DNA of 7,817 bases, taken from the IMG/VR virus record IMGVR_UViG_2541047945_000007. One strand, written 5' to 3'. Both the position numbers and the translations under genes were made by a program. The stretch comes from a virus (Duplodnaviria > Heunggongvirae > Uroviricota > Caudoviricetes). The notes under the pieces are model-generated. The model was given only the letters and a program-made list of their open reading frames with translations. It was not told the DNA's origin and made no database searches. This document shows, one piece after another, positions 1 through 7,817 of this stretch. Within the stretch, counting starts at the first letter, position 1. The number at the start of each line of letters is the position of its first letter.

Positions 1-180
1 GCCCCCGGTATCCCGCTCATGCTGGCGAACCCAGACACGCAGAGTCTCCGGCGTACAGCCAATCTTTGGAGCAATGGAACAAATTGTCGCCCATTGTGAG
101 TCATATTCGCCCTGACTTTCCAGAACCATACGGACTGCCCGTTGACGGACTTCAGGGGAAAAACGAGTATTTTTAGTCAT
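1..180 (-). CDS. IS3-family transposase OrfA, N-terminal 60 codons (gene start at 180, runs off the window)
   Basis: Open minus-strand frame from ATG 180..178 to the window edge; SD-like GAGG upstream on the minus strand (GAGGTAAACAGG then ATG); HTH-like N-terminal sequence typical of IS3 OrfA. Confidence 0.8.
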
Positions 181-234
181 CCTGTTTACCTCTTTCTCAG
201 GAAGTTTAGTCTCCAGGATTCCCGGGGCGGTTCA
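1..234 (-). mobile_element. Left end of an IS3-family insertion sequence (IS629/IS1203-like), partial; the element continues beyond the window start
   Basis: Minus-strand translation from the ATG at 180..178 gives [60 protein letters not shown], which I recognise from memory as IS3-family OrfA (IS629-type). The minus-strand sequence ending at 234 begins TGAACCGCCCCGGG, consistent with an IS3-family terminal inverted repeat (TG...CA ends). Only one end is visible, so no target-site duplication can be assessed. Confidence 0.75.
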
Positions 235-379
235 GTATGAAGATATTCAGCAGCCTGCGCAACAACAGACACAACAAGCAACATCTGGCGGTCAAACATT
301 TCGAGAAGGTATGACCGCGAAAAATCCTAAAACTGGTCAGAAAATTATTTACAGGAACGGACAATGGCAACCAATGTAG
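235..379 (+). pseudogene. 3' remnant (47 codons) of a virion gene truncated by the IS insertion; by synteny a P22 gene 20-like ejection protein
   Basis: Frame 2 is open from the first base after the IS end (236) to TAG at 377..379, giving YEDIQQPAQQQTQQATSGGQTFREGMTAKNPKTGQKIIYRNGQWQPM*. It has no start codon of its own and its stop overlaps the next gene start by 16 nt, as in tightly packed late operons. Identity of the gene is inference from position only. Confidence 0.45.
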
Positions 380-2487
380 GTTTACCAGAGGGATTTGTTC
401 TGGATGAACAGCCTGATAACTCACAGCTTCCTGATGGCTTTGTGCTTGATGCCCAACCAGAACAGCAGCAATCTCCTTTGGTTTCACCAGAGGAAAATTC
501 CAGACAGGAAAATGTTGTTAATAATGCTAACGGTTTCGACCGTTTTATGTATGGCGTTCTCAGTGGATTGATGGATGTTGGTAAAGGTGTTGGTCTATTT
601 CAGGATATGACACCAGAAGAGCAAGCCGCAATTCAGTCTCTACAGCAGAAGTTAGCGGCAAAACCATCAACCGTACAAGATGTTGGTGAGTTCGTTGGAC
701 AAGCAGCACCATTTGTTAGTGGTGGTGGGATTATTTCTCAGGTTCCGAAAGGGGCGGCAAGGCTGGCTGCCGCCGCAGGGCTTGGTGCTGGAGAAGGGGC
801 TATTGTAGCCAATGGAACAAATAGCGATGTTGCTTCTGGAGCTGCTATTGGCGCTGTGGCTGGCCCTGTAGCAGAGATTGTTGGTCCAGCTCTTGGGAAG
901 ATTGCAGGAAAAATTAAAAATAGTGCCGGAGATATTTATCGCTCATCCGTAGGGATGGGTAGTAAATCATCTAAAGCAACGTTAAAGAAAGCTGCTGGCG
1001 CAATGGACAATAAATTTATCGGCGGGCAACGAGCTATTCAAGATTTCGCCGATGAAGTTAATCCTGATTTTAACGCGATAAATGCTATTCGTGAGCTAGA
1101 ACTGGAAAATTATGCCACTCCAGGCATGATCTCTAATAATCCTGCTGTCAGGGCTCTTGATAATGCAGTGGCAAGTCTCCCTGGAACAGAGATTAGTGAG
1201 GCGCATAAGCGTTTTATTACTGAATTAGGAAGAAAAGCTGATGAAATGATAACTTCATTTGGGGGAAGCCTTGATAAGCAACTGGTTTCTGACAGGCTTG
1301 CAGATAATTTTGATAAAACCATTTCATCATTACAAAATCAGTCAGATAACATCTACAACAAAATTGCCGAAAAGGTTCCTGTAAGAGACCGGATTGAGGC
1401 AACTAATACATTGAATTTTTTAGAGGATTTTGCTGATGATATAGGTGGAATTGATGAATTATCTCCAATAATGAAGCGGACATTGAACCGACTTGATCCA
1501 AACACCTTGCCAACGTATGGGCGTTTAGATCTCGCTAGAAAGCAGGTTGGGCAAGCTATTGGCAAAGGCTCTGGCCCATTCAAGGATGAAGAAACAGGTG
1601 TTCTTAAAAAGTTATATGCGGCTATAACAGATGACCAACAGGCTGTCGCAGAAAAATATGGCGCAGGGGAGTTATGGACGCTTGGTAAGGAGTTGGTAAA
1701 AACACGAAAATCCATTGAAGATGATGCCGTAACCGTTTTGGGTAGAAAACTTCAGCAATCAGCAATTCCAAAAGTTGAAAGTGCCGTTGTTAATATGGCA
1801 AAAGGAAACGGTGGTGACTTTAGGCAATTAATGAAGTCAATTCCAAAGGATATGCGGCAGGAAGTTGCGCTCACCTCAATGAATAAAGCATTTACCAGCT
1901 ATGCTAAATCACCAGGTCAGCAATTAGGGGTTGATGGATTTGTAAAATGGTATAACGGAATGTCACGCAATGGGGCCAATATGAAGGCTCTCCGTGATGC
2001 TATTGGCACAGATGCATCAAAGCGCCTTGATACGATTTATCAAGCAGCTAAGGCTATGAATAGACTCAATACTGGTAAGCAGTATGCTAGTAGTCTTGTG
2101 GATCAGCAAGTTAATAACTTTCTGAAAGAAAAGGGTAGTCTCGCAAAAATTTATGGAATAGCCTCAAAAGCTGCTGCGGCGGAAGGTATTACAAGCTTAT
2201 CTGGTCTTCCTGGTGTAGGTGCAACAGGGGTGATAACGTCAGCATTGATGTCAGGGAAAACAAGCAGGATAAAGGCTGCTGATGCTCTACTGTCTTCTCC
2301 TGAGTTTAAATCAATGCTATTTCGCCTGCAAAACGCACCTGTAGACAGAGCAGAAGTGAGACGCGTAATAGAAAGGAAACTGATGCAATCTGGGGCATTT
2401 AAGAGATGGGAGAAAACCTTATCAACAGATGAAGCAAAAACCATTGCCCGCACGGGGATTATTACATGGCTCGCTAGTGACAGTTAG
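364..2487 (+). CDS. Internal virion / DNA ejection protein (707 aa); P22 gene 16-like by position
   Basis: 2124-nt ORF; SD AGGAA at 353..357, 6 nt before ATG 364. N-terminal acidic tandem peptide repeat (LPEGFVLDEQP / LPDGFVLDAQP), a long Gly/Ala-rich hydrophobic segment (about aa 107-184), then a long predicted alpha-helical region. It lies immediately upstream of the immI region, as gene 16 does in P22. Functional assignment is from synteny and composition, not recognised sequence identity. Confidence 0.8.
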   Translation: MATNVGLPEGFVLDEQPDNSQLPDGFVLDAQPEQQQSPLVSPEENSRQENVVNNANGFDRFMYGVLSGLMDVGKGVGLFQDMTPEEQAAIQSLQQKLAAKPSTVQDVGEFVGQAAPFVSGGGIISQVPKGAARLAAAAGLGAGEGAIVANGTNSDVASGAAIGAVAGPVAEIVGPALGKIAGKIKNSAGDIYRSSVGMGSKSSKATLKKAAGAMDNKFIGGQRAIQDFADEVNPDFNAINAIRELELENYATPGMISNNPAVRALDNAVASLPGTEISEAHKRFITELGRKADEMITSFGGSLDKQLVSDRLADNFDKTISSLQNQSDNIYNKIAEKVPVRDRIEATNTLNFLEDFADDIGGIDELSPIMKRTLNRLDPNTLPTYGRLDLARKQVGQAIGKGSGPFKDEETGVLKKLYAAITDDQQAVAEKYGAGELWTLGKELVKTRKSIEDDAVTVLGRKLQQSAIPKVESAVVNMAKGNGGDFRQLMKSIPKDMRQEVALTSMNKAFTSYAKSPGQQLGVDGFVKWYNGMSRNGANMKALRDAIGTDASKRLDTIYQAAKAMNRLNTGKQYASSLVDQQVNNFLKEKGSLAKIYGIASKAAAAEGITSLSGLPGVGATGVITSALMSGKTSRIKAADALLSSPEFKSMLFRLQNAPVDRAEVRRVIERKLMQSGAFKRWEKTLSTDEAKTIARTGIITWLASDS

Positions 2488-2774
2488 TCAACTTTGGTTA
2501 TTTTGCCTTCTTTTTCTTGATGAACTTTGCATCCATCATCTTTTGATAGCCAAACTAAAAACTTTAAAACCTTAAACACAAGTACGGCTACTGCAATGAA
2601 AGCACCAATTGCAATTATTGCAAGCGAAATTATTTGCATTGGTGCTTTTAATGCAGGGAAAATAGTGTAAATGATCGCGAAAACAGTAATTATGAGGAAC
2701 CATCGCTTCACACCAACCTCCTTAGTTTTGTGCAGGATACCAGATGGTTTGGAGTGAGATAAAGGTTTGTCCAC
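2484..2774 (-). CDS. Small hypothetical membrane protein (96 aa from a GTG start; possible shorter form from an internal ATG)
   Basis: Minus-strand ORF with two strongly hydrophobic stretches (WFLIITVFAIIYTIFPAL and IISLAIIAIGAFIAVAVLVFKVL). Co-oriented with, and 64 bp downstream of, the PIN gene. GTG start with no clear SD and a T-rich coding strand mean the ORF could partly be a composition artefact. Its stop overlaps the convergent 707-aa gene stop. Confidence 0.4.
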   Translation of the reverse strand: MDKPLSHSKPSGILHKTKEVGVKRWFLIITVFAIIYTIFPALKAPMQIISLAIIAIGAFIAVAVLVFKVLKFLVWLSKDDGCKVHQEKEGKITKVD

Positions 2775-2794
2775 TTTTGGCTATAGCTTTATGT

Positions 2795-2823
2795 ATCCGT
2801 GACGGATGTAATTATCACGGATG
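2795..2823. other. Inverted and direct repeat cluster between the PIN gene and the small membrane-protein ORF
   Basis: ATCCGTGACGGAT (2795..2807) is a palindrome; ATCCGTGA (2795..2802) is the inverse complement of TCACGGAT (2815..2822); ACGGATG occurs twice (2802..2808 and 2817..2823). No T-run follows on either strand, so it is not a clean intrinsic terminator. Confidence 0.4.
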
Positions 2824-2838
2824 CATAAAAATTATATT

Positions 2839-3387
2839 TTAGTGTAATCTCTGATCGTCTGAATCGTGTAAGAACTCCATGAGACTTTGAACCGGAATTG
2901 GTTCTATTGATGATAATGTGAACACAGGAATATTGAGACTTTTGCAACGCTCAAACACTCCCTTATCATGAGTCCATACCTCGTCAGCATTAATTGCTCT
3001 TGCAATTGCTATTATTTGTCTGTCAAACTTAATTTTGTTTGCTGTACCTTCTGTGCTAATTTTCCTTAATTCTTTTAATGTTGGTATCGATGCGCATTCA
3101 ATAGCAGCCAACTCATCAAATGATACAGTTTCGAAGCACGATAACGATTTGATAACATTCAGTTTTTCTTGTTGGTAATCTTTATGGATTCCAACTAAAA
3201 ACTCCGCCAATACAGGAGTTGGAACGATGATTGTCCCGTTCTTGTTATCTATTCGATCAACAAGAGCTTCTGCTCTTCTTTTGGCATCTGGAATCTCAGA
3301 ACCAAGTATAGGGTCAGATAATCTATAATCGTGTTCTATATCTGATAGTAGGTATACCAGAATATTGGTATCTAAAATTACTCGCAA
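2839..3387 (-). CDS. PIN-domain nuclease, VapC-like (182 aa)
   Basis: N-terminus MRVILDTNILVY is the canonical PIN start. The four conserved acidic positions are present in the expected motifs: D6 (ILDTN), E62 (PVLAEF), D122 (KFDRQIIAIA) and D141 (WTHDKGVFER, matching the VapC T-x-x-D...FER C-terminal motif). Start is TTG at 3387..3385 preceded by a good SD (GAGGAA, 7-nt spacer); there is no in-frame ATG. The start overlaps the upstream gene's stop by 10 nt, indicating translational coupling. Confidence 0.8.
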   Translation of the reverse strand: MRVILDTNILVYLLSDIEHDYRLSDPILGSEIPDAKRRAEALVDRIDNKNGTIIVPTPVLAEFLVGIHKDYQQEKLNVIKSLSCFETVSFDELAAIECASIPTLKELRKISTEGTANKIKFDRQIIAIARAINADEVWTHDKGVFERCKSLNIPVFTLSSIEPIPVQSLMEFLHDSDDQRLH

Positions 3388-4097
3388 TTTATCTTCCTCA
3401 GAGTCCTAAGGATTGAATCAACATCGCGTTCCTCGGACCACTGATCTCCAGGAACTTGCTTGATAGCATTAATAGCATCCTTGAGTGATGATTTTTTGAG
3501 CAATACAAATGAAGTTATTTTTAGTTTCTTTAGCTCCCATTTGTTGTTCTTTTTTTCCCAGCACCCATCTCCTTTAACCCTAATATATTTGAATAGATGG
3601 GACCCAAGAGCTGCCGCCAAATCAGGGGTTGCCTCGCACTTGAATGTTTCACCGTTGGCTCCCTCAATACGCACAGGTATTGAGTTGTCTTTTCCGCCAA
3701 CACTGTATAGCCTTCCTTGAACTTCTGACGTTTTTGTTATGAGTAAAGGGATTGGCTCCTTTTTTACTCGCGGGAATGCGATAATGGTTGAGTGGTTTCG
3801 TCCGAGTAGTTTCGCTGAAAAACCATCATGCTCCAGTAAATTAACAATTTTTTGATACGCGGGTGATTTCTCTTTGGCTGAGAGAGAGGCCCTTGCTATG
3901 ACAGCGTTATAACAAATATCATTATCGACCCATGCATTTAAGTCAGCCGATCCTTCACTTACACAGTCGAAGTGAACAGAATCTGCAGAACCGTATAGAT
4001 CTACGAGAGCAGACATATACTTGACCAACTTAGCCATTGACAGCTGGCCAGGGGTGGTTCCGTCAAGTTTTAATGTGAGTCCATTGCTTTTTTTCAT
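3378..4097 (-). CDS. Hypothetical protein (239 aa), upstream partner of the PIN nuclease; no recognisable domain
   Basis: 720-nt minus-strand ORF starting 49 bp downstream of the mnt stop; AT-rich like the PIN gene; ends ...LRKINCE* with its TAA inside the PIN start region. No Walker, HTH or other motif I can identify. The SD is weak (GTGATGACAA then ATG). Confidence 0.7.
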   Translation of the reverse strand: MKKSNGLTLKLDGTTPGQLSMAKLVKYMSALVDLYGSADSVHFDCVSEGSADLNAWVDNDICYNAVIARASLSAKEKSPAYQKIVNLLEHDGFSAKLLGRNHSTIIAFPRVKKEPIPLLITKTSEVQGRLYSVGGKDNSIPVRIEGANGETFKCEATPDLAAALGSHLFKYIRVKGDGCWEKKNNKWELKKLKITSFVLLKKSSLKDAINAIKQVPGDQWSEERDVDSILRTLRKINCE

Positions 4098-4146: not shown

Positions 4147-4401
4147 CTATAACTTACTTTTGCTATAAATATTTTTCAGCGTTTCAAAGACCATCTTCTT
4201 AACAACGTCAGATTGCTCATCCGCGACTCGCTCAGCTTCGTCTCGATAGCCTACAATTGATGATGGCTTTGAGAGAGCATCCTGAACGATTTGTAATAAC
4301 TCAGAGTTCATTGACCTTCCGTTAGCCTCTGCTCTTAATTTCAATTTTTCTCTTACTTCCAAAGGCATACGGAAGTTAAAGTGCGGATCGTCTCTAGCCA
4401 T
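4147..4401 (-). CDS. mnt: Mnt repressor (ribbon-helix-helix), maintenance-of-lysogeny repressor of the immI region
   Basis: Translation MARDDPHFNFRMPLEVREKLKLRAEANGRSMNSELLQIVQDALSKPS... is nearly identical to P22 Mnt as I recall it. Divergent from arc, with the P22-type operators between them. Confidence 0.93.
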   Translation of the reverse strand: MARDDPHFNFRMPLEVREKLKLRAEANGRSMNSELLQIVQDALSKPSSIVGYRDEAERVADEQSDVVKKMVFETLKNIYSKSKL

Positions 4402-4423: not shown

Positions 4424-4452
4424 TTGACATGATAGAAGCACTCTACTATATT
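4424..4452 (+). promoter_or_regulatory. Pant-like sigma70 promoter (-35 TTGACA 4424..4429, 17-bp spacer, -10 TATATT 4447..4452)
   Basis: Consensus -35, 17-nt spacer and near-consensus -10 read directly from the sequence; location and arrangement match P22 Pant. Confidence 0.7.
4429..4449. promoter_or_regulatory. Arc operator (Oarc): ATGATAGAAGCACTCTACTAT
   Basis: The 21-bp sequence matches the P22 arc operator as I remember it from the Arc-operator structural literature, with TAGA/TCTA half-sites; it lies in the Pant spacer and overlaps the Pmnt -10. Confidence 0.7.
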
Positions 4453-4457
4453 CTCAA
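4429..4457 (-). promoter_or_regulatory. Pmnt-like divergent promoter (minus strand: -35 TTGAGA at 4457..4452, 17-bp spacer, -10 TATCAT at 4434..4429)
   Basis: Read on the reverse complement. Overlaps Pant back-to-back, as described for P22 immI. Confidence 0.55.
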
Positions 4458-4477
4458 TAGGTCCACCGTGGACCTAT
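4457..4477. promoter_or_regulatory. Mnt operator (Omnt): perfect 21-bp palindrome ATAGGTCCACCGTGGACCTAT centred on 4467
   Basis: Perfect dyad symmetry verified base by base; it lies just downstream of the Pant -10 (covering the expected transcription start), where Mnt represses ant in P22. Confidence 0.75.
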
Positions 4478-4491
4478 ATTGTGAGGTAAAT

Positions 4492-4650
4492 ATGAAAGGA
4501 ATGAGCAAAATGCCGCAGTTCAATTTGCGGTGGCCTAAAGAAGTATTGGATTTGGTGCGCAAGGTAGCTGAAGAGAACGGGCGATCTGTTAACTCTGAGA
4601 TTTATAAGCGAGTGATGGACAGCCTGAAGAGAGAGGGGATAACGGTATGA
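4492..4650 (+). CDS. arc: Arc repressor (ribbon-helix-helix), 52 aa
   Basis: [52 protein letters not shown] is near-identical to P22 Arc as I recall it. SD GAGG 7 nt upstream of ATG 4492. The longer ORF-track start at 4429 is rejected because it would cover the promoter and operators. Confidence 0.93.
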   Translation: MKGMSKMPQFNLRWPKEVLDLVRKVAEENGRSVNSEIYKRVMDSLKREGITV

Positions 4651-4868
4651 AGTTTATTGAGGTTGATGAGATTGGCTATGAGAATGCACTTGGTAGAGGT
4701 AAATCTTTAGTTAACGTTAATGGCATTGAGTCGATAAGGAGCGGTGAATTTACGGAGATCAGAATGATGTCAGGTGGAATCATTCCTTGCCGTGATTCAG
4801 TAGAGTCAATCAAAGCAAGAATGAGTGGTCAGTGGCTTTATAACTACAGTGACTTACAAAAACAGTGA
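4647..4868 (+). CDS. Hypothetical protein (73 aa) inserted between arc and ant
   Basis: ATG overlaps the arc stop (ATGA at 4647..4650); strong SD GAGAGGGG at 4628..4635. Nothing of this size lies between arc and ant in P22 as I recall it. No recognisable motif. Confidence 0.55.
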
Positions 4869-5876: not shown

Positions 5877-6011
5877 TGCCCAAAATTCACCGCAGCAACT
5901 AAGCGGCGATGGCCTTGATGGATAGCACTACGAAATTTTCGTAGTTCAAAAACCAAACAAATACCAACCGTAGCCATGCTGCGGCGATTCCTTGTATCTG
6001 GAGCAAATTAA

Positions 6012-7817
6012 ATGACAGACATTATACCTAACATTATAGTTTCCATGCCTAATCAATTGTTCACAATGTCAAGAACATTTAAATCAGTATCGAATGGAAG
6101 CATTTATATCGGGAAGCCTGATACCGATCCGACTAATCCAGATAATCAAGTGGATGTTTATTTTGAGAATGAGAATGGAAAATATATTAAGGTTTCTCAA
6201 CCAATAAAAATAAGTCAAGCTGGACAACCTGTATTGAATGGTCAATTCGGTAAGTTTGCGACTATAAAAAATCACTCAATGGCGATTTTTGATGCGTATG
6301 GCTCTCAGCAGCACTATTTCCCAAATGTAATGAAATATGCTCCAGATCAGTTAAGGCAGGAATTAACAAATTTTTCTGGTGAAAATTCTCCTGGTTATGC
6401 TGACCCAAGTAATACGGTATGGGGAATTGATGCATTTTCTTCTAATGAATATGCGAAAAATAATGCTTTTTTCGGAGTTGGAGCAGGATCATCAATTATA
6501 GGTAACGAGTCAGATGAGGCTGTTGGTGCGGAAAATACTGGTATTGGTAGACGAGCCGGTGCAAGCCTTACAACAGGACAGCGCAATGTTCTACTTGGAC
6601 ATGAGGCTGGAGCACTGTTAACTACAGGTAGTTGTAATATTTTTATTTACGCTCAAAGTTCTTCTTATGCCAACTATAAAACCGGTAGTTATAATGTAGT
6701 GGTTGGTTATAACGCTGGCAAACTATTAACATCAGGAGAGAGAAATGTTTCAGTTGGTACGGATGCTGGGTCACGAACAACAACAGGAAGAGATAACGTT
6801 GCTGTCGGTCAAGCAGCAATGCAAAATAACTCAACTGGTGGTGGTAATACCTATATAGGAGCATTCTCTGGTGCTGAGACGGGAACTGGCGGTAATAATC
6901 TTGCTGCAGGTCGCTCTGCCTTATTTAGAAATGTGGATGGTTCTGGAAACGTTGCACTAGGACGTGAGGCTTCTCTTGGTTTGTCTTCATATGGGGAATC
7001 TCCCAATAATATTGTTGCTATAGGGTATCAAGCTGCATGGTCACAGAATGGATTAAATGGTGTTGTTTTTTGTGGGATGCAAGCAGGATATAAAGCAACA
7101 AAAATGAATGATTCAGTTCTTATTGGTAGGGCTTCCGGCTTTAATTTAACAACAGGAAGTGATAATGTTTTTGTTGGTGCAGCGTCAGGAGATAGTGAGA
7201 CTACTGGAACCCAATTAGTATATCTTGGACATCAAGCTGGTAGGTTTTTGATTGATGGGACACCTGCAAAAGAGAAATTAAATTGTGTAGCTTTAGGCTG
7301 CCGTGCCAGAGTTGGTGGAGATCATGAGATTCAGTTAGGAAATTCTTCTCAGACAGTTTATGTATATGGTACGGTGCAAACTCGGTCTGATGAGCGTGAT
7401 AAAGCAGATAAACGAATAATAGACGGAGAACTTGCTGTATCATTCGTCCGTGGAATAATCCCATATTTTTATAAGTGGGATTTTCGTGATGATTATATAG
7501 AAGAATACAATGTAAAAATTGGTGATGATTCTAATGGCAATCCGATTTTTGAAACTAGAATTCATCAACATGAAAAAGATGGCAGTAGAAAAAGGAAAAG
7601 AGAACATGCCGGGTATCTTGCACAGCAAGTTAAAGAATTACTTGATCGACTTGGAATTGACTGTGGTATATATCAAGATCATCTAGTAAACAATGGATGC
7701 GATGTAAAAACAATTGCCTACGAACAGGTTATACCGTTTGTTACAAAGGCTATAGATGTTGCATTTTCAAGGATAGAGGGGTTAGAGCAAAGATTGAACA
7801 AACTCGAAAACCTATAA
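6012..7817 (+). CDS. Tailspike / tail fibre protein (601 aa): P22-type N-terminal head-binding domain, Gly-rich repeat shaft, C-terminal intramolecular chaperone domain
   Basis: The first ~115 aa (MTDIIPNIIVSMPNQLFTMSRTFKSVSNGSIYIGKPDTDPTNPDNQ...HSMAIFDAYGSQQHYFPNVMKYAPDQ) align closely with the P22 gp9 head-binding domain as I recall it. GGAG at 6000..6003 precedes ATG 6012. The C-terminus contains SDERDK (S459 to K464) followed by about 140 aa including HAGYLAQQVKELL, typical of the S74-type self-cleaving chaperone of phage fibres. Complete ORF with TAA at 7815..7817. Confidence 0.93.
   Translation: MTDIIPNIIVSMPNQLFTMSRTFKSVSNGSIYIGKPDTDPTNPDNQVDVYFENENGKYIKVSQPIKISQAGQPVLNGQFGKFATIKNHSMAIFDAYGSQQHYFPNVMKYAPDQLRQELTNFSGENSPGYADPSNTVWGIDAFSSNEYAKNNAFFGVGAGSSIIGNESDEAVGAENTGIGRRAGASLTTGQRNVLLGHEAGALLTTGSCNIFIYAQSSSYANYKTGSYNVVVGYNAGKLLTSGERNVSVGTDAGSRTTTGRDNVAVGQAAMQNNSTGGGNTYIGAFSGAETGTGGNNLAAGRSALFRNVDGSGNVALGREASLGLSSYGESPNNIVAIGYQAAWSQNGLNGVVFCGMQAGYKATKMNDSVLIGRASGFNLTTGSDNVFVGAASGDSETTGTQLVYLGHQAGRFLIDGTPAKEKLNCVALGCRARVGGDHEIQLGNSSQTVYVYGTVQTRSDERDKADKRIIDGELAVSFVRGIIPYFYKWDFRDDYIEEYNVKIGDDSNGNPIFETRIHQHEKDGSRKRKREHAGYLAQQVKELLDRLGIDCGIYQDHLVNNGCDVKTIAYEQVIPFVTKAIDVAFSRIEGLEQRLNKLENL
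6459..7346 (+). repeat. Degenerate periodic coding repeat in the tailspike (about 14 units of 17-18 aa, consensus roughly G-x-x-AG-x-x-L-TTG-x-x-NV-x-x-G)
   Basis: Units read from the translation include RRAGASLTTGQRNVLLG, HEAGALLTTGSCNIFIY, YNAGKLLTSGERNVSVG, TDAGSRTTTGRDNVAVG, RASGFNLTTGSDNVFVG and AASGDSETTGTQLVYLG. The periodicity is at the protein level; the DNA units are diverged and not identical tandem repeats. Confidence 0.6.

What the first reader, a model, noticed from the sequence alone, without database searches (positions are those of the whole stretch)
2484..4097. Low-GC cargo block between the ejection gene and mnt
Hand counts of single 60-nt lines give roughly 37% GC inside the PIN gene (2881..2940) against roughly 48% in the ejection gene (1501..1560). 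These are single-line samples, not a computed profile. Together with weak or atypical starts (TTG, GTG) and the hypervariable location, this suggests a horizontally acquired moron rather than core phage genes.
Basis: seen in the sequence. Interest (0 to 1): 0.35.

Follow-up and report, generated by a model that had tools for sequence, protein, structure and literature searches.

The report
Swappable prophage cargo: PIN nuclease pair
The stretch is exchangeable accessory cargo in a known variable slot of a P22-like E. coli prophage, shown by comparison with relatives rather than by its only slightly lower GC, and it carries an uncharacterised PIN-nuclease gene pair that is probably a toxin-antitoxin-like anti-phage system.

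Summary
The hand counts are exact (36.7% and 48.3%), but they overstate the contrast. The block is 39.0% GC against 42.3% for the rest of the window. Only 2484-3600 is low (36.4%); 3601-4097 is 44.7%, and the tailspike gene is just as low (38.6%). Third-position GC of the PIN gene (0.29) matches the ejection gene (0.32), and the block's dinucleotide signature is not an outlier. Composition therefore does not mark the block.

Comparison with relatives does. The slot between the ejection gene and mnt holds different genes in nine P22-like genomes. The block is two separate modules joined at a conserved 34-41-nt leader (2706-2746):
- a 75-aa two-helix membrane protein gene in the sieA position (2484-2711);
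- an overlapping pair, orf239 then PIN (2839-4097), apparently read from the mnt promoter.

The pair is conserved down to about 30% identity. In five phage lineages it sits directly behind a lysogeny repressor. Orf239 (no Pfam family; 1,591 cluster representatives) models as a ferredoxin-like domain, an OB fold and a helical tail. The PIN keeps its acidic tetrad. DefensePredictor lists this exact PIN protein as an untested putative defence gene.

Verdict: ordinary moron hotspot carrying a moderately interesting candidate defence pair.

The parts
1..234 (.). End of an IS3-family (IS1203-like) insertion sequence that truncates the prophage on the left. Context only, not part of the cargo.
   Evidence: 100% identical to the IS3-family element end in NZ_CP091756 and about 95% to the IS1203 copies in L020. 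It accounts for thousands of matches across E. coli genomes.
364..2487 (+). Ejection (DNA transfer) protein gene, 707 aa. Left flank of the slot. Its stop overlaps the stop of the small membrane gene by 4 nt, tail to tail.
   Evidence: PHROG 6704 full length and phrog_770 'DNA transfer protein'; ORF list; sequence.
2484..2711 (-). Module A: 75-aa protein with two hydrophobic helices and a charged C-terminus, in the sieA position. GTG start preceded by AAGGAGG. The 96-aa ORF to 2774 is an upstream extension that is probably not used.
   Evidence: PHROG 7294 matches residues 22-96 of the 96-aa ORF over 75/75 positions. RefSeq annotates 228 nt. Hydropathy peaks lie near residues 12 and 38. No similarity to P22 SieA. 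It travels with this ejection-gene type (query 1-447 hits).
2706..2746 (-). Conserved leader and ribosome-binding segment, shared with the P22 sieA leader and many other prophages. It is the junction between the two modules and the likely recombination joint.
   Evidence: 34 nt are 100% identical to P22 immediately upstream of sieA. The two classes of megablast hits end and begin here. Isolated hits of 34-45 nt occur in further genomes (H114-H120).
2788..2829 (.). 15-nt inverted repeat (93% complementary, 12-nt loop) just downstream of the PIN stop. Possibly the end of the mnt transcript or a protein-binding site. No T-run on the minus strand.
   Evidence: the repeat finder pair I3; sequence; not called as an intrinsic terminator.
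2839..3387 (-). Module B, gene 2: PIN-domain nuclease, 182 aa. TTG start with GAGGA 7 nt upstream; it overlaps the orf239 stop by 10 nt.
   Evidence: Pfam PF01850, E = 4e-10, above the gathering score. D6, E62, D122 and D141 are invariant in 35 homologues. Junction sequence. WP_001263856.1 is listed as a putative novel defence gene in DefensePredictor Table S10.
3378..4097 (-). Module B, gene 1: orf239, the partner of the PIN protein. The model shows an N-terminal ferredoxin-like domain (1-110), an OB fold (118-199) and a lower-confidence C-terminal helical tail (205-237) with conserved G217, W220 and R234.
   Evidence: No Pfam, NCBIfam, PADLOC or PDB sequence hits. AF2 model pLDDT 85. Foldseek hits to Stn1, RPA32, LysRS and SSB OB folds. 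The N-terminal domain has only weak ferredoxin-like hits. Family size 1,591 representatives. Conservation.
4147..4401 (-). mnt (Arc/Mnt-family repressor). Right flank and probable first gene of the mnt-orf239-PIN transcript. Homology to prophages with other cargo starts at 4157-4175.
   Evidence: Pfam Arc plus Repressor_Mnt; hit boundaries.
4424..4477 (.). Face-to-face Pant (+, 4424-4452) and Pmnt (-, 4457-4429) promoters, and the 21-nt palindromic Mnt-operator-like site (4457-4477).
   Evidence: Best promoter matches in the scan, 11/12 and 10/12; perfect palindrome I5; same layout as annotated in P22.

Best explanation
The window is a P22-like E. coli prophage truncated by an insertion sequence. 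The region 2484-4097 fills the known variable slot between the last ejection gene and the immI repressor gene mnt.

The region is two exchangeable modules, not one block.
- Module A (2484-2711) encodes a 75-aa two-helix inner-membrane protein. It occupies the sieA position and uses the conserved sieA leader. It is probably a small superinfection-exclusion-type protein (inferred from position only).
- Module B (2839-4097) is a translationally coupled gene pair, orf239 then PIN, lying 49 nt downstream of mnt with no promoter or terminator called in between. It is therefore most likely transcribed with mnt from Pmnt in the lysogen (inferred).

Proposed mechanism for module B, all inferred. The PIN protein is a Mg-dependent nuclease toxin, most likely an RNase as in VapC. 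Orf239 binds it, probably through its conserved C-terminal helical tail (W220, R234), and keeps it inactive. The OB fold of orf239 senses a nucleic acid or a protein made during infection by another phage. That releases or redirects the nuclease and aborts the infection. This would make the pair a toxin-antitoxin-like, prophage-borne defence, positioned like lambda rexAB.

The slightly lower GC is a general property of this slot and of this gene pair, not a signature that sets it apart from the neighbouring phage genes.
For: Shown:
- Slot variability. Nine P22-like genomes carry different contents here. P22 has sieA plus orf59a. E. coli relatives have P63C plus small genes (14), a 140-aa gene plus the PIN pair (15), the PIN pair alone (16), Rap1a/Tai immunity protein (63), two IS1203 copies plus a transthyretin-like domain protein (64), and a 199-aa gene plus a YafO toxin (65, 66).
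- Two modules with a junction at 2706-2746.
- The PIN domain has an invariant D6/E62/D122/D141 tetrad.
- 10-nt overlap between the two genes, with a Shine-Dalgarno sequence before the PIN start.
- Strict pairing. Of 23 representative-genome loci with an orf239 homologue, 21 have an intact PIN directly downstream, 2 a decayed one and 1 none. All six earlier loci also have it.
- Distant PINs (35-38% identity) have distant orf239 homologues upstream (hhalign E = 8e-36 and 2e-34).
- The pair sits directly downstream of, and co-oriented with, a lysogeny repressor in five lineages: mnt here; S24 cI in Pseudomonas (21); HTH_3 CI in Leclercia (29); S24 cI in Providencia (41); CI-like repressor in the isolated phage Ostro (85).
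- The commonest neighbours are Peptidase_S24 and HTH_3 repressors. Type I R-M genes and DUF3375/DUF4194 also occur; I recall the latter two as Wadjet JetA/JetB, not checked here.
- OB fold with a low-confidence conserved C-terminal tail.
- Pmnt and Pant were found, with no terminator or promoter called between mnt and orf239.
- An independent machine-learning prediction of a defence role for exactly this PIN protein, mean log-odds 6.8. It is absent from that study's table that lists tested systems such as DS-5 (supplementary file 2).
Against: There is no experimental evidence for toxicity, neutralisation, defence or co-transcription.
- Orf239 is three times the size of a usual VapB and has no recognisable DNA-binding antitoxin domain.
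- In the one validated two-gene PIN system I could read about (DS-5), the partner is not an antitoxin, so the antitoxin role may be wrong.
- No PADLOC model matches either protein.
- Several homologous pairs sit next to housekeeping genes.
- The hairpin after PIN lacks a T-run, and no own promoter was found for the small gene, so the transcript map is uncertain.
- The role of the 75-aa protein rests only on its position.
Confidence: 0.6

Rival explanations
1. The pair is a plain addiction (post-segregational killing) toxin-antitoxin module. It stabilises the prophage or its remnant in the chromosome and has no role against other phages.
For: It has toxin-antitoxin-like architecture: an upstream partner, overlapping genes and a PIN toxin. 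NCBI names close homologues 'VapC family toxin'. The pair persists at 99.4-100% identity in IS-truncated prophage remnants. A YafO-toxin pair occupies the same slot in other prophages.
Against: The partner lacks the DNA-binding domain that autoregulates classical VapBC operons and carries an OB fold instead. The pair is repeatedly placed behind lysogeny repressors, and sometimes next to R-M genes and DUF3375/DUF4194. DefensePredictor scores the PIN protein as defensive. The two roles are not mutually exclusive.
Confidence: 0.2
2. The pair serves the phage's own life cycle. For example, it could be an OB-fold single-strand-binding factor plus a nuclease acting in replication, recombination or RNA processing, so it would not be lysogen-expressed cargo.
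For: The OB fold resembles SSB and RPA-type domains. PIN-like nucleases act in DNA and RNA processing (general knowledge).
Against: Most P22-like phages lack it: only 32 of 274 E. coli genomes matching this query carry it, and no isolated P22-like phage does. It is oriented with the lysogenic repressor, opposite to the late genes. It also occurs outside prophages.
Confidence: 0.07
3. The compositional reading as given: the block is a recently acquired foreign segment, recognisable by its low GC and atypical codon usage relative to the core phage genes.
For: Total GC is 3.3 points below the rest of the window and 4.5 below the ejection gene. The slot is 37-41% GC in eight relatives, and the pair is below its flanks in 11 of 11 other hosts.
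Against: GC3 of PIN and orf75 equals that of the ejection gene. The tailspike is lower still. Orf239 is not low. The dinucleotide signature is the least deviant of all same-size segments. The whole window is about 10 points below host genes.
Confidence: 0.1

Closest known systems
VapBC type II toxin-antitoxin systems (PIN toxin VapC, antitoxin VapB)
   Same: A PIN domain with the conserved acidic tetrad. The partner gene lies immediately upstream and overlaps the toxin gene. The module is small and mobile, and NCBI names close homologues VapC-family toxins.
   Different: The partner is 239 aa, against roughly 70-100 aa for VapB (from memory). It has a ferredoxin-like domain plus an OB fold and no RHH, AbrB, HTH or Phd DNA-binding domain. 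The PIN is 182 aa, with an insertion of about 30 residues between the first aspartate and the glutamate. It scores far below the NCBIfam VapC cut-offs (27 against 140 bits).
P22 sieA / orf59a / mnt region (immI-proximal accessory slot of P22-like phages)
   Same: Same position between the gene 16 homologue and mnt, same orientation and the same conserved sieA leader. The Pant, Pmnt and operator layout is the same. SieA homologues lie between the homologues of genes 16 and 9 (PMC10883804).
   Different: No SieA homologue is present. The 75-aa protein has no similarity to P22 SieA; I did not see the FxRYPxEAxxFNK motif in its sequence (by eye, no motif search). Orf59a is replaced by the orf239-PIN pair.
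Lambda rexAB and other repressor-linked prophage defences (for example BstA in BTP1)
   Same: A two-gene (or one-gene) accessory unit directly downstream of, and co-oriented with, the lysogeny repressor, and so expected to be made in the lysogen. The pair occupies this position in five phage lineages (and this window).
   Different: No sequence or fold relationship. The comparison concerns position and presumed regulation only, and rests on general knowledge of lambda.
DS-5 of DefensePredictor (PIN ribonuclease plus DUF5830/AcrIF4-like partner; validated defence)
   Same: A two-gene system with a PIN nuclease whose catalytic residues are required for defence. The partner is required and is encoded upstream (PMC13092281).
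   Different: The DS-5 partner is 166 aa with DUF5830, whereas orf239 has no DUF5830 hit. The DS-5 catalytic residues mutated were D7 and E44, against D6 and E62 here. The accessions differ (WP_021513008/9). I could not compare the sequences directly.

Membership tests
Moron / accessory cargo of a temperate phage (Hendrix-Juhala sense) | Present at a given position in some genomes and absent or replaced at the same position in close relatives | tested here: met
   Nine P22-like genomes carry different contents between the ejection gene and mnt. Hit boundaries lie at 2706-2746 and 4157-4175.
Moron / accessory cargo of a temperate phage (Hendrix-Juhala sense) | Own promoter and terminator flanking the inserted unit | tested here: inconclusive
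   No sigma-70-like promoter was called between mnt and orf239. A 9/12 promoter-like site lies at 2863-2836, across the 3' end and stop of the PIN gene. A 15-bp hairpin without a T-run lies at 2788-2829. The unit looks appended to the mnt transcript.
Moron / accessory cargo of a temperate phage (Hendrix-Juhala sense) | Base composition or codon usage distinct from neighbouring phage genes | tested here: not met
   GC3 is 0.29 (PIN, orf75) and 0.40 (orf239), against 0.32 (ejection gene), 0.22 (tailspike) and 0.41-0.44 (mnt, ant). The dinucleotide distance is the smallest of all segments tested. Only total GC is 3 points lower.
Moron / accessory cargo of a temperate phage (Hendrix-Juhala sense) | Expressed from the repressed prophage | not testable with these tools
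   Inferred only, from co-orientation with mnt and Pmnt and from repressor-proximal placement in other phages.
VapBC type II toxin-antitoxin | Toxin is a PIN domain with four conserved acidic residues | tested here: met
   PF01850 scores 40.8 bits against a cut-off of 23.6. D6, E62, D122 and D141 are invariant in 35 sequences.
VapBC type II toxin-antitoxin | Cognate partner gene immediately upstream in one operon, often overlapping | tested here: met
   10-nt overlap. Of the 23 orf239-homologue loci returned by the genome scan, 21 have an intact PIN directly downstream, 2 a decayed one and 1 none; the 6 loci fetched earlier all have it. The arrangement is the same at each, with spacing of about -10 to +4 nt where the start is clear.
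VapBC type II toxin-antitoxin | Small antitoxin with an N-terminal DNA-binding domain (RHH, AbrB, HTH or Phd) and a C-terminal toxin-binding tail | tested here: not met
   239 aa with no Pfam or NCBIfam hit. The model shows a ferredoxin-like domain plus an OB fold. A conserved, low-confidence C-terminal helical tail exists but its role is untested.
VapBC type II toxin-antitoxin | Toxin arrests growth and the partner neutralises it | not testable with these tools
   Needs expression experiments.
SieA superinfection exclusion protein (for the 75-aa gene) | Sequence homology to SieA types A-C, including the FxRYPxEAxxFNK motif; about 160-200 aa | tested here: not met
   BLASTP against P22 SieA gives E = 3.6. 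The protein is 75 aa. I did not see the motif in the sequence (by eye, no motif search). Motif and types are from PMC10883804. Only the position and the leader are shared.
Known anti-phage defence systems (PADLOC-DB v2.0.0) | Significant match of a component to a PADLOC model | tested here: not met
   No hit at E <= 0.1 for PIN or orf239. The 75-aa ORF has only a 0.073 hit to a 4TM effector model.
DS-5 (DefensePredictor) | Partner protein with DUF5830 and an AcrIF4-like domain | tested here: not met
   No DUF5830 (PF19148) hit for orf239 or for 35 distant homologues. The DS-5 partner is 166 aa.

The most novel reading that the evidence does not exclude
Orf239-PIN is the founding example of a widespread family, with at least 1,591 clusters at 50% identity across Proteobacteria and no Pfam or PADLOC model. 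In this reading it is a lysogen-expressed, two-component anti-phage system. A ferredoxin-like plus OB-fold protein acts as both inhibitor and infection sensor of a PIN nuclease. Temperate phages of several lineages place it in the repressor-proximal 'rex' position.
Probability: 0.45. Interest if true: 0.55.

Novelty: new variant of a known kind. Interest (0 to 1): 0.38.

Why it matters
As posed, the finding is routine. Accessory genes in the sieA-mnt slot of P22-like phages are expected, and the GC argument does not hold up. Three points are worth keeping.

1. A methodological point. Composition failed here and synteny succeeded, and the 'block' is really two modules joined at a conserved 34-41-nt leader that looks like a recombination joint.

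2. A concrete experimental candidate. The PIN nuclease has an unusually large OB-fold partner. The pair is strictly conserved as a pair and repeatedly placed behind lysogeny repressors. It belongs to a large family that no curated database describes, and an independent predictor has flagged it without testing it. If it defends, it adds a new sensor-effector design to the toxin-antitoxin-like defences. It would also help explain why IS-eroded prophage remnants keep this segment.

3. The slot also holds a YafO-toxin pair and a Rap1a/Tai immunity gene in sister prophages. It is therefore a compact hotspot to mine.

Tried and rejected
- Single coherent low-GC island. Rejected: the dip covers only 2484-3600, and GC3 and the dinucleotide signature match the flanks.
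- The 75-aa protein as a short SieA. Rejected: no similarity.
- Orf239 related to the 199-aa partner of the YafO toxin in the same slot of UM146, which would imply a shared modular antitoxin. Rejected: hhalign probability 0.4%.
- Identity with DS-5. Rejected on the partner's domain and length, and on different accessions.
- Function from the N-terminal domain of orf239. A separate model (pLDDT 84) gave only generic ferredoxin-like hits with E > 0.01, so nothing could be inferred.
- Sequence searches of orf239 and its profile against PDB, Pfam and NCBIfam: nothing significant.
- PADLOC: nothing.
- Literature. No paper mentions either RefSeq accession in its main text. Brenes & Laub 2025 (Cell Host Microbe), which reportedly validated a PIN-containing prophage defence, is not held. 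I therefore could not check whether it covers this pair.
- Intrinsic terminator or own promoter for the pair: none found by the consensus scan.
- The search for related loci with the deep alignment A4 failed for lack of conserved stretches. The closer alignment A2 worked.

Full report
**What the window is.** ORF listing and family scans give the gene order of the immI end of a P22-like phage:
- ejection (DNA-transfer) protein gene, 364-2487 (+);
- three minus-strand ORFs at 2484-2774, 2839-3387 and 3378-4097;
- mnt, 4147-4401 (-);
- arc (+), a 73-aa ORF, and ant;
- a tailspike gene with a P22 head-binding domain, 6012-7817.

Megablast places the window in E. coli chromosomes. It is 100% identical to NZ_CP091756, where the element is an IS-flanked remnant between appA and torT. 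Window 1-234 is the end of an IS3-family element. In NZ_CP091756 the same IS abuts window position 668. The prophage is therefore truncated on the left.

**Checking the observation.** The two hand-counted lines are exact at 36.7% and 48.3%, but they exaggerate the contrast. The ejection gene averages 43.6%, and single 60-nt lines have an SD of 7 points.
- Block 2484-4097 is 39.0% GC against 42.3% for the rest (Mann-Whitney on 60-nt lines, p = 0.04).
- Only 2484-3600 is low (36.4%). 3601-4097 is 44.7%.
- The lowest 1614-nt window of the whole sequence starts at 5986 in the tailspike region (38.7%).
- GC3 is 0.29 for PIN and the small gene. That is indistinguishable from the ejection gene (0.318 +/- 0.034) and above the tailspike (0.223). 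Orf239 (0.396) resembles mnt and ant.
- The deficit in total GC relative to the ejection gene lies in codon positions 1 and 2, so it reflects amino-acid composition.
- The block's dinucleotide signature is the closest to the rest of the window of all same-size segments tested.
- Every gene in the window is far from a host sample, appB and appA at 53-54% GC.

Composition does not separate this block from 'core' phage genes. The TTG and GTG starts are real, but they have good ribosome-binding sites (GAGGA and AAGGAGG) and carry no information about origin.

In eight P22-like genomes the slot is always 37-41% GC whatever it holds, below the ejection gene (43-50%) and immI (42-44%). PIN-pair homologues are below their flanks in 11 of 11 other hosts.

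**What shows it is cargo.** Synteny does. The space between the ejection gene and mnt holds the following:

| Genome | Slot contents |
|---|---|
| P22 | sieA + orf59a |
| E2528-C1 | the same 75-aa gene, then a P63C protein and three small genes |
| p11A (strain 4433, labelled O25b:H4-ST131, gave the same match span) | a 140-aa gene, then the PIN pair |
| PEC011 | the PIN pair alone, behind a P22-type gene 16 |
| CFSAN061770 | Rap1a/Tai immunity protein + a 104-aa gene |
| 2013C-4081 | two IS1203 copies, a transthyretin-like domain protein and a 104-aa gene |
| UM146, MS14385 | a 199-aa gene overlapping a YafO-family toxin, plus a small gene |

Hit boundaries define two modules.
- Window 2300-2746 (ejection gene 3' end plus the small gene) travels together, including in the isolated phages EC.P3 and E212.
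- Window 2706/2709-4450 (PIN pair plus mnt) travels together at 99.4-100% identity in 32 of 5,426 complete E. coli genomes, behind at least three ejection-gene types.
- The two classes overlap in a 34-41-nt leader. It is 100% identical over 34 nt to the sequence just upstream of P22 sieA and recurs as an isolated hit in further genomes. It contains the AAGGAGG ribosome-binding site of the sieA-position gene and looks like the recombination joint.
- On the right, homology to prophages with other cargo begins at 4157-4175, in the 3' end of mnt.

**Module A.** PHROG 7294 (75 aa) matches residues 22-96 of the 96-aa ORF. RefSeq annotates the 228-nt gene. The GTG at 2711 follows AAGGAGG. The product has two hydrophobic segments and a charged C-terminus. 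It shows no similarity to P22 SieA. SieA proteins come in three types of roughly 160-200 aa that share an FxRYPxEAxxFNK motif and lie between genes 16 and 9 (PMC10883804). The small protein shares the position and the leader only. A superinfection-exclusion-like role is a guess from position.

**Module B anatomy.** Orf239 (ATG at 4097) ends 10 nt inside the PIN gene. The PIN TTG at 3387 is preceded by GAGGA, and its N-terminus MRVILDTN matches the homologues.
- PIN matches PF01850 above the gathering score. D6, E62, D122 and D141 are invariant in 35 homologues down to 29% identity.
- Orf239 has no Pfam, NCBIfam, PADLOC or PDB sequence match, alone or as a profile.
- Its AlphaFold model (pLDDT 85) shows an N-terminal alpha/beta domain (1-110), a beta-barrel (118-199) and lower-confidence C-terminal helices (205-237).
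- Foldseek matches the barrel to OB folds of Stn1, RPA32, LysRS anticodon-binding domains and SSBs.
- The N-terminal domain modelled alone gives only weak ferredoxin-like matches.
- G217, W220 and R234 in the tail are invariant among close relatives. W220 and R234 are nearly invariant among distant ones.

**Module B distribution.** A profile search finds 1,591 representatives at 50% identity (824 at E <= 1e-10). The 150 best-scoring ones listed are almost all about 220-260 aa.

The pairing is strict. Of 23 representative-genome loci, 21 have an intact PIN directly downstream, two have a decayed PIN and one has none. All six loci fetched earlier also have it. PIN homologues at 35-38% identity, in Marinobacterium and Providencia, have upstream partners that hhalign identifies as orf239 relatives (E = 2e-34 and 8e-36).

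Context repeats. The pair follows, co-oriented, a lysogeny repressor in:
- Pseudomonas prophages (S24 cI);
- Leclercia Rac-like prophages (HTH_3 CI);
- a Providencia prophage (S24 cI);
- the isolated Pseudomonas phage Ostro (CI-like repressor);
- this window (mnt).

Among the neighbours of the 23 genome loci, Peptidase_S24 and HTH_3 are the commonest families. Type I R-M genes and DUF3375/DUF4194 also appear, which I recall as Wadjet JetA/JetB (not checked here); other loci lie beside housekeeping genes.

**Transcription (inferred).** The best promoter matches in the region are the face-to-face Pant (4424-4452, +) and Pmnt (4457-4429, -). Next to them is a perfect 21-nt palindrome, the Mnt-operator position in P22. 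No promoter or terminator is called in the 49 nt between mnt and orf239. A 15-bp hairpin without a T-run follows PIN. In P22, orf59a lies between mnt and the annotated t_mnt terminator. The simplest reading is one mnt-orf239-PIN transcript made in the lysogen.

**Mechanism proposed.** I rate this at about 0.55 for defence or toxin-antitoxin logic, and about 0.9 for 'exchangeable accessory cargo'.
- PIN is a metal-dependent nuclease toxin.
- Orf239 is made just before it from the same message and holds it inactive, probably through the conserved C-terminal tail. This is by analogy with VapB and FitA tails that reach into the PIN active site (established knowledge, not tested here).
- The OB fold senses a nucleic acid or protein produced by an infecting phage and releases or redirects the nuclease, aborting the infection.

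The domains, the catalytic residues, the gene coupling, the pair conservation and the genomic placement are shown. Everything about binding, sensing, target and phenotype is inferred.

**Comparison with the known.** The pair works like a VapBC module, but it fails one defining feature, the small DNA-binding antitoxin. It scores far below the NCBIfam VapC cut-offs. It occupies the kind of position that rexAB holds in lambda. It is not DS-5, the validated PIN pair of DefensePredictor, whose partner is 166 aa with DUF5830.

DefensePredictor's Table S10 lists exactly WP_001263856.1, this PIN protein, as an uncharacterised 'putative novel defense gene'. Its mean log-odds is 6.81 and it has no known-defence homologue. 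It is absent from that study's table that lists tested systems such as DS-5 (supplementary file 2). No held paper names either accession in its main text. Brenes & Laub 2025 could not be read, so prior validation there cannot be excluded.

**Verdict.** The slot is a known hotspot, so the finding as posed is ordinary. The orf239-PIN pair is a reasonable untested candidate for a new variant of toxin-antitoxin-like prophage defence.

Noticed in passing
window 1-234 and 235-667: The window opens with the end of an IS3-family (IS1203-like) element that truncates the gene-20 homologue. In NZ_CP091756 the same IS abuts window position 668, so a further 433 bp are missing there. This looks like nested IS-adjacent deletions eroding the prophage from the left, while the cargo, immI and tailspike are kept.
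   Followed up: partly
window 4647-4868 (+): A 73-aa ORF (PHROG 11805, unknown function) overlaps the arc stop and sits between arc and ant. P22 has the sar antisense RNA and its terminator in this interval and no ORF. Sister prophages carry 73-, 74- or 89-aa ORFs in the same place, so this is a second small variable slot.
   Followed up: no
L021 3442-4445 and L022 3442-4445 (E. coli UM146, MS14385): In these sister prophages the same position downstream of mnt holds a 199-aa protein of unknown family overlapping a YafO-family toxin gene. The 'large partner then small toxin' layout matches orf239-PIN, but the partners are unrelated (hhalign probability 0.4%).
   Followed up: partly
L019 4157-4492 (E. 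coli CFSAN061770): A Rap1a/Tai-family (type VI secretion effector) immunity protein gene overlaps the mnt stop in the same slot. An orphan immunity gene carried by a prophage is unusual cargo for this position.
   Followed up: no
window 2788-2829: A 15-nt inverted repeat (one mismatch, 12-nt loop) lies between the PIN stop and the leader of the small gene. It has no T-run on the minus strand and contains the near-repeat CATCCGTGA / CATCCGTCA. It could be a bidirectional stop signal or a protein-binding site.
   Followed up: no
window 2591-2656, inside the 75-aa gene: A 29-nt imperfect inverted repeat (79% complementary, 8-nt spacer) lies within the coding sequence of the membrane protein's second hydrophobic segment. 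Whether it is chance or an RNA hairpin is not known.
   Followed up: no
window 6012-7817: The tailspike gene has the lowest GC3 in the window (0.22). It combines a P22 head-binding domain with a C-terminal Peptidase_S74 (endosialidase chaperone) domain. It is at least as compositionally deviant as the flagged block, and it differs between sister prophages after the head-binding domain.
   Followed up: partly
L023 and L026 (Pantoea latae contig NZ_MWUE01000022.1): One Pantoea genome carries two diverged copies of the orf239-PIN pair about 12 kb apart on the same contig (70% and 57% identity to the window's orf239).
   Followed up: no
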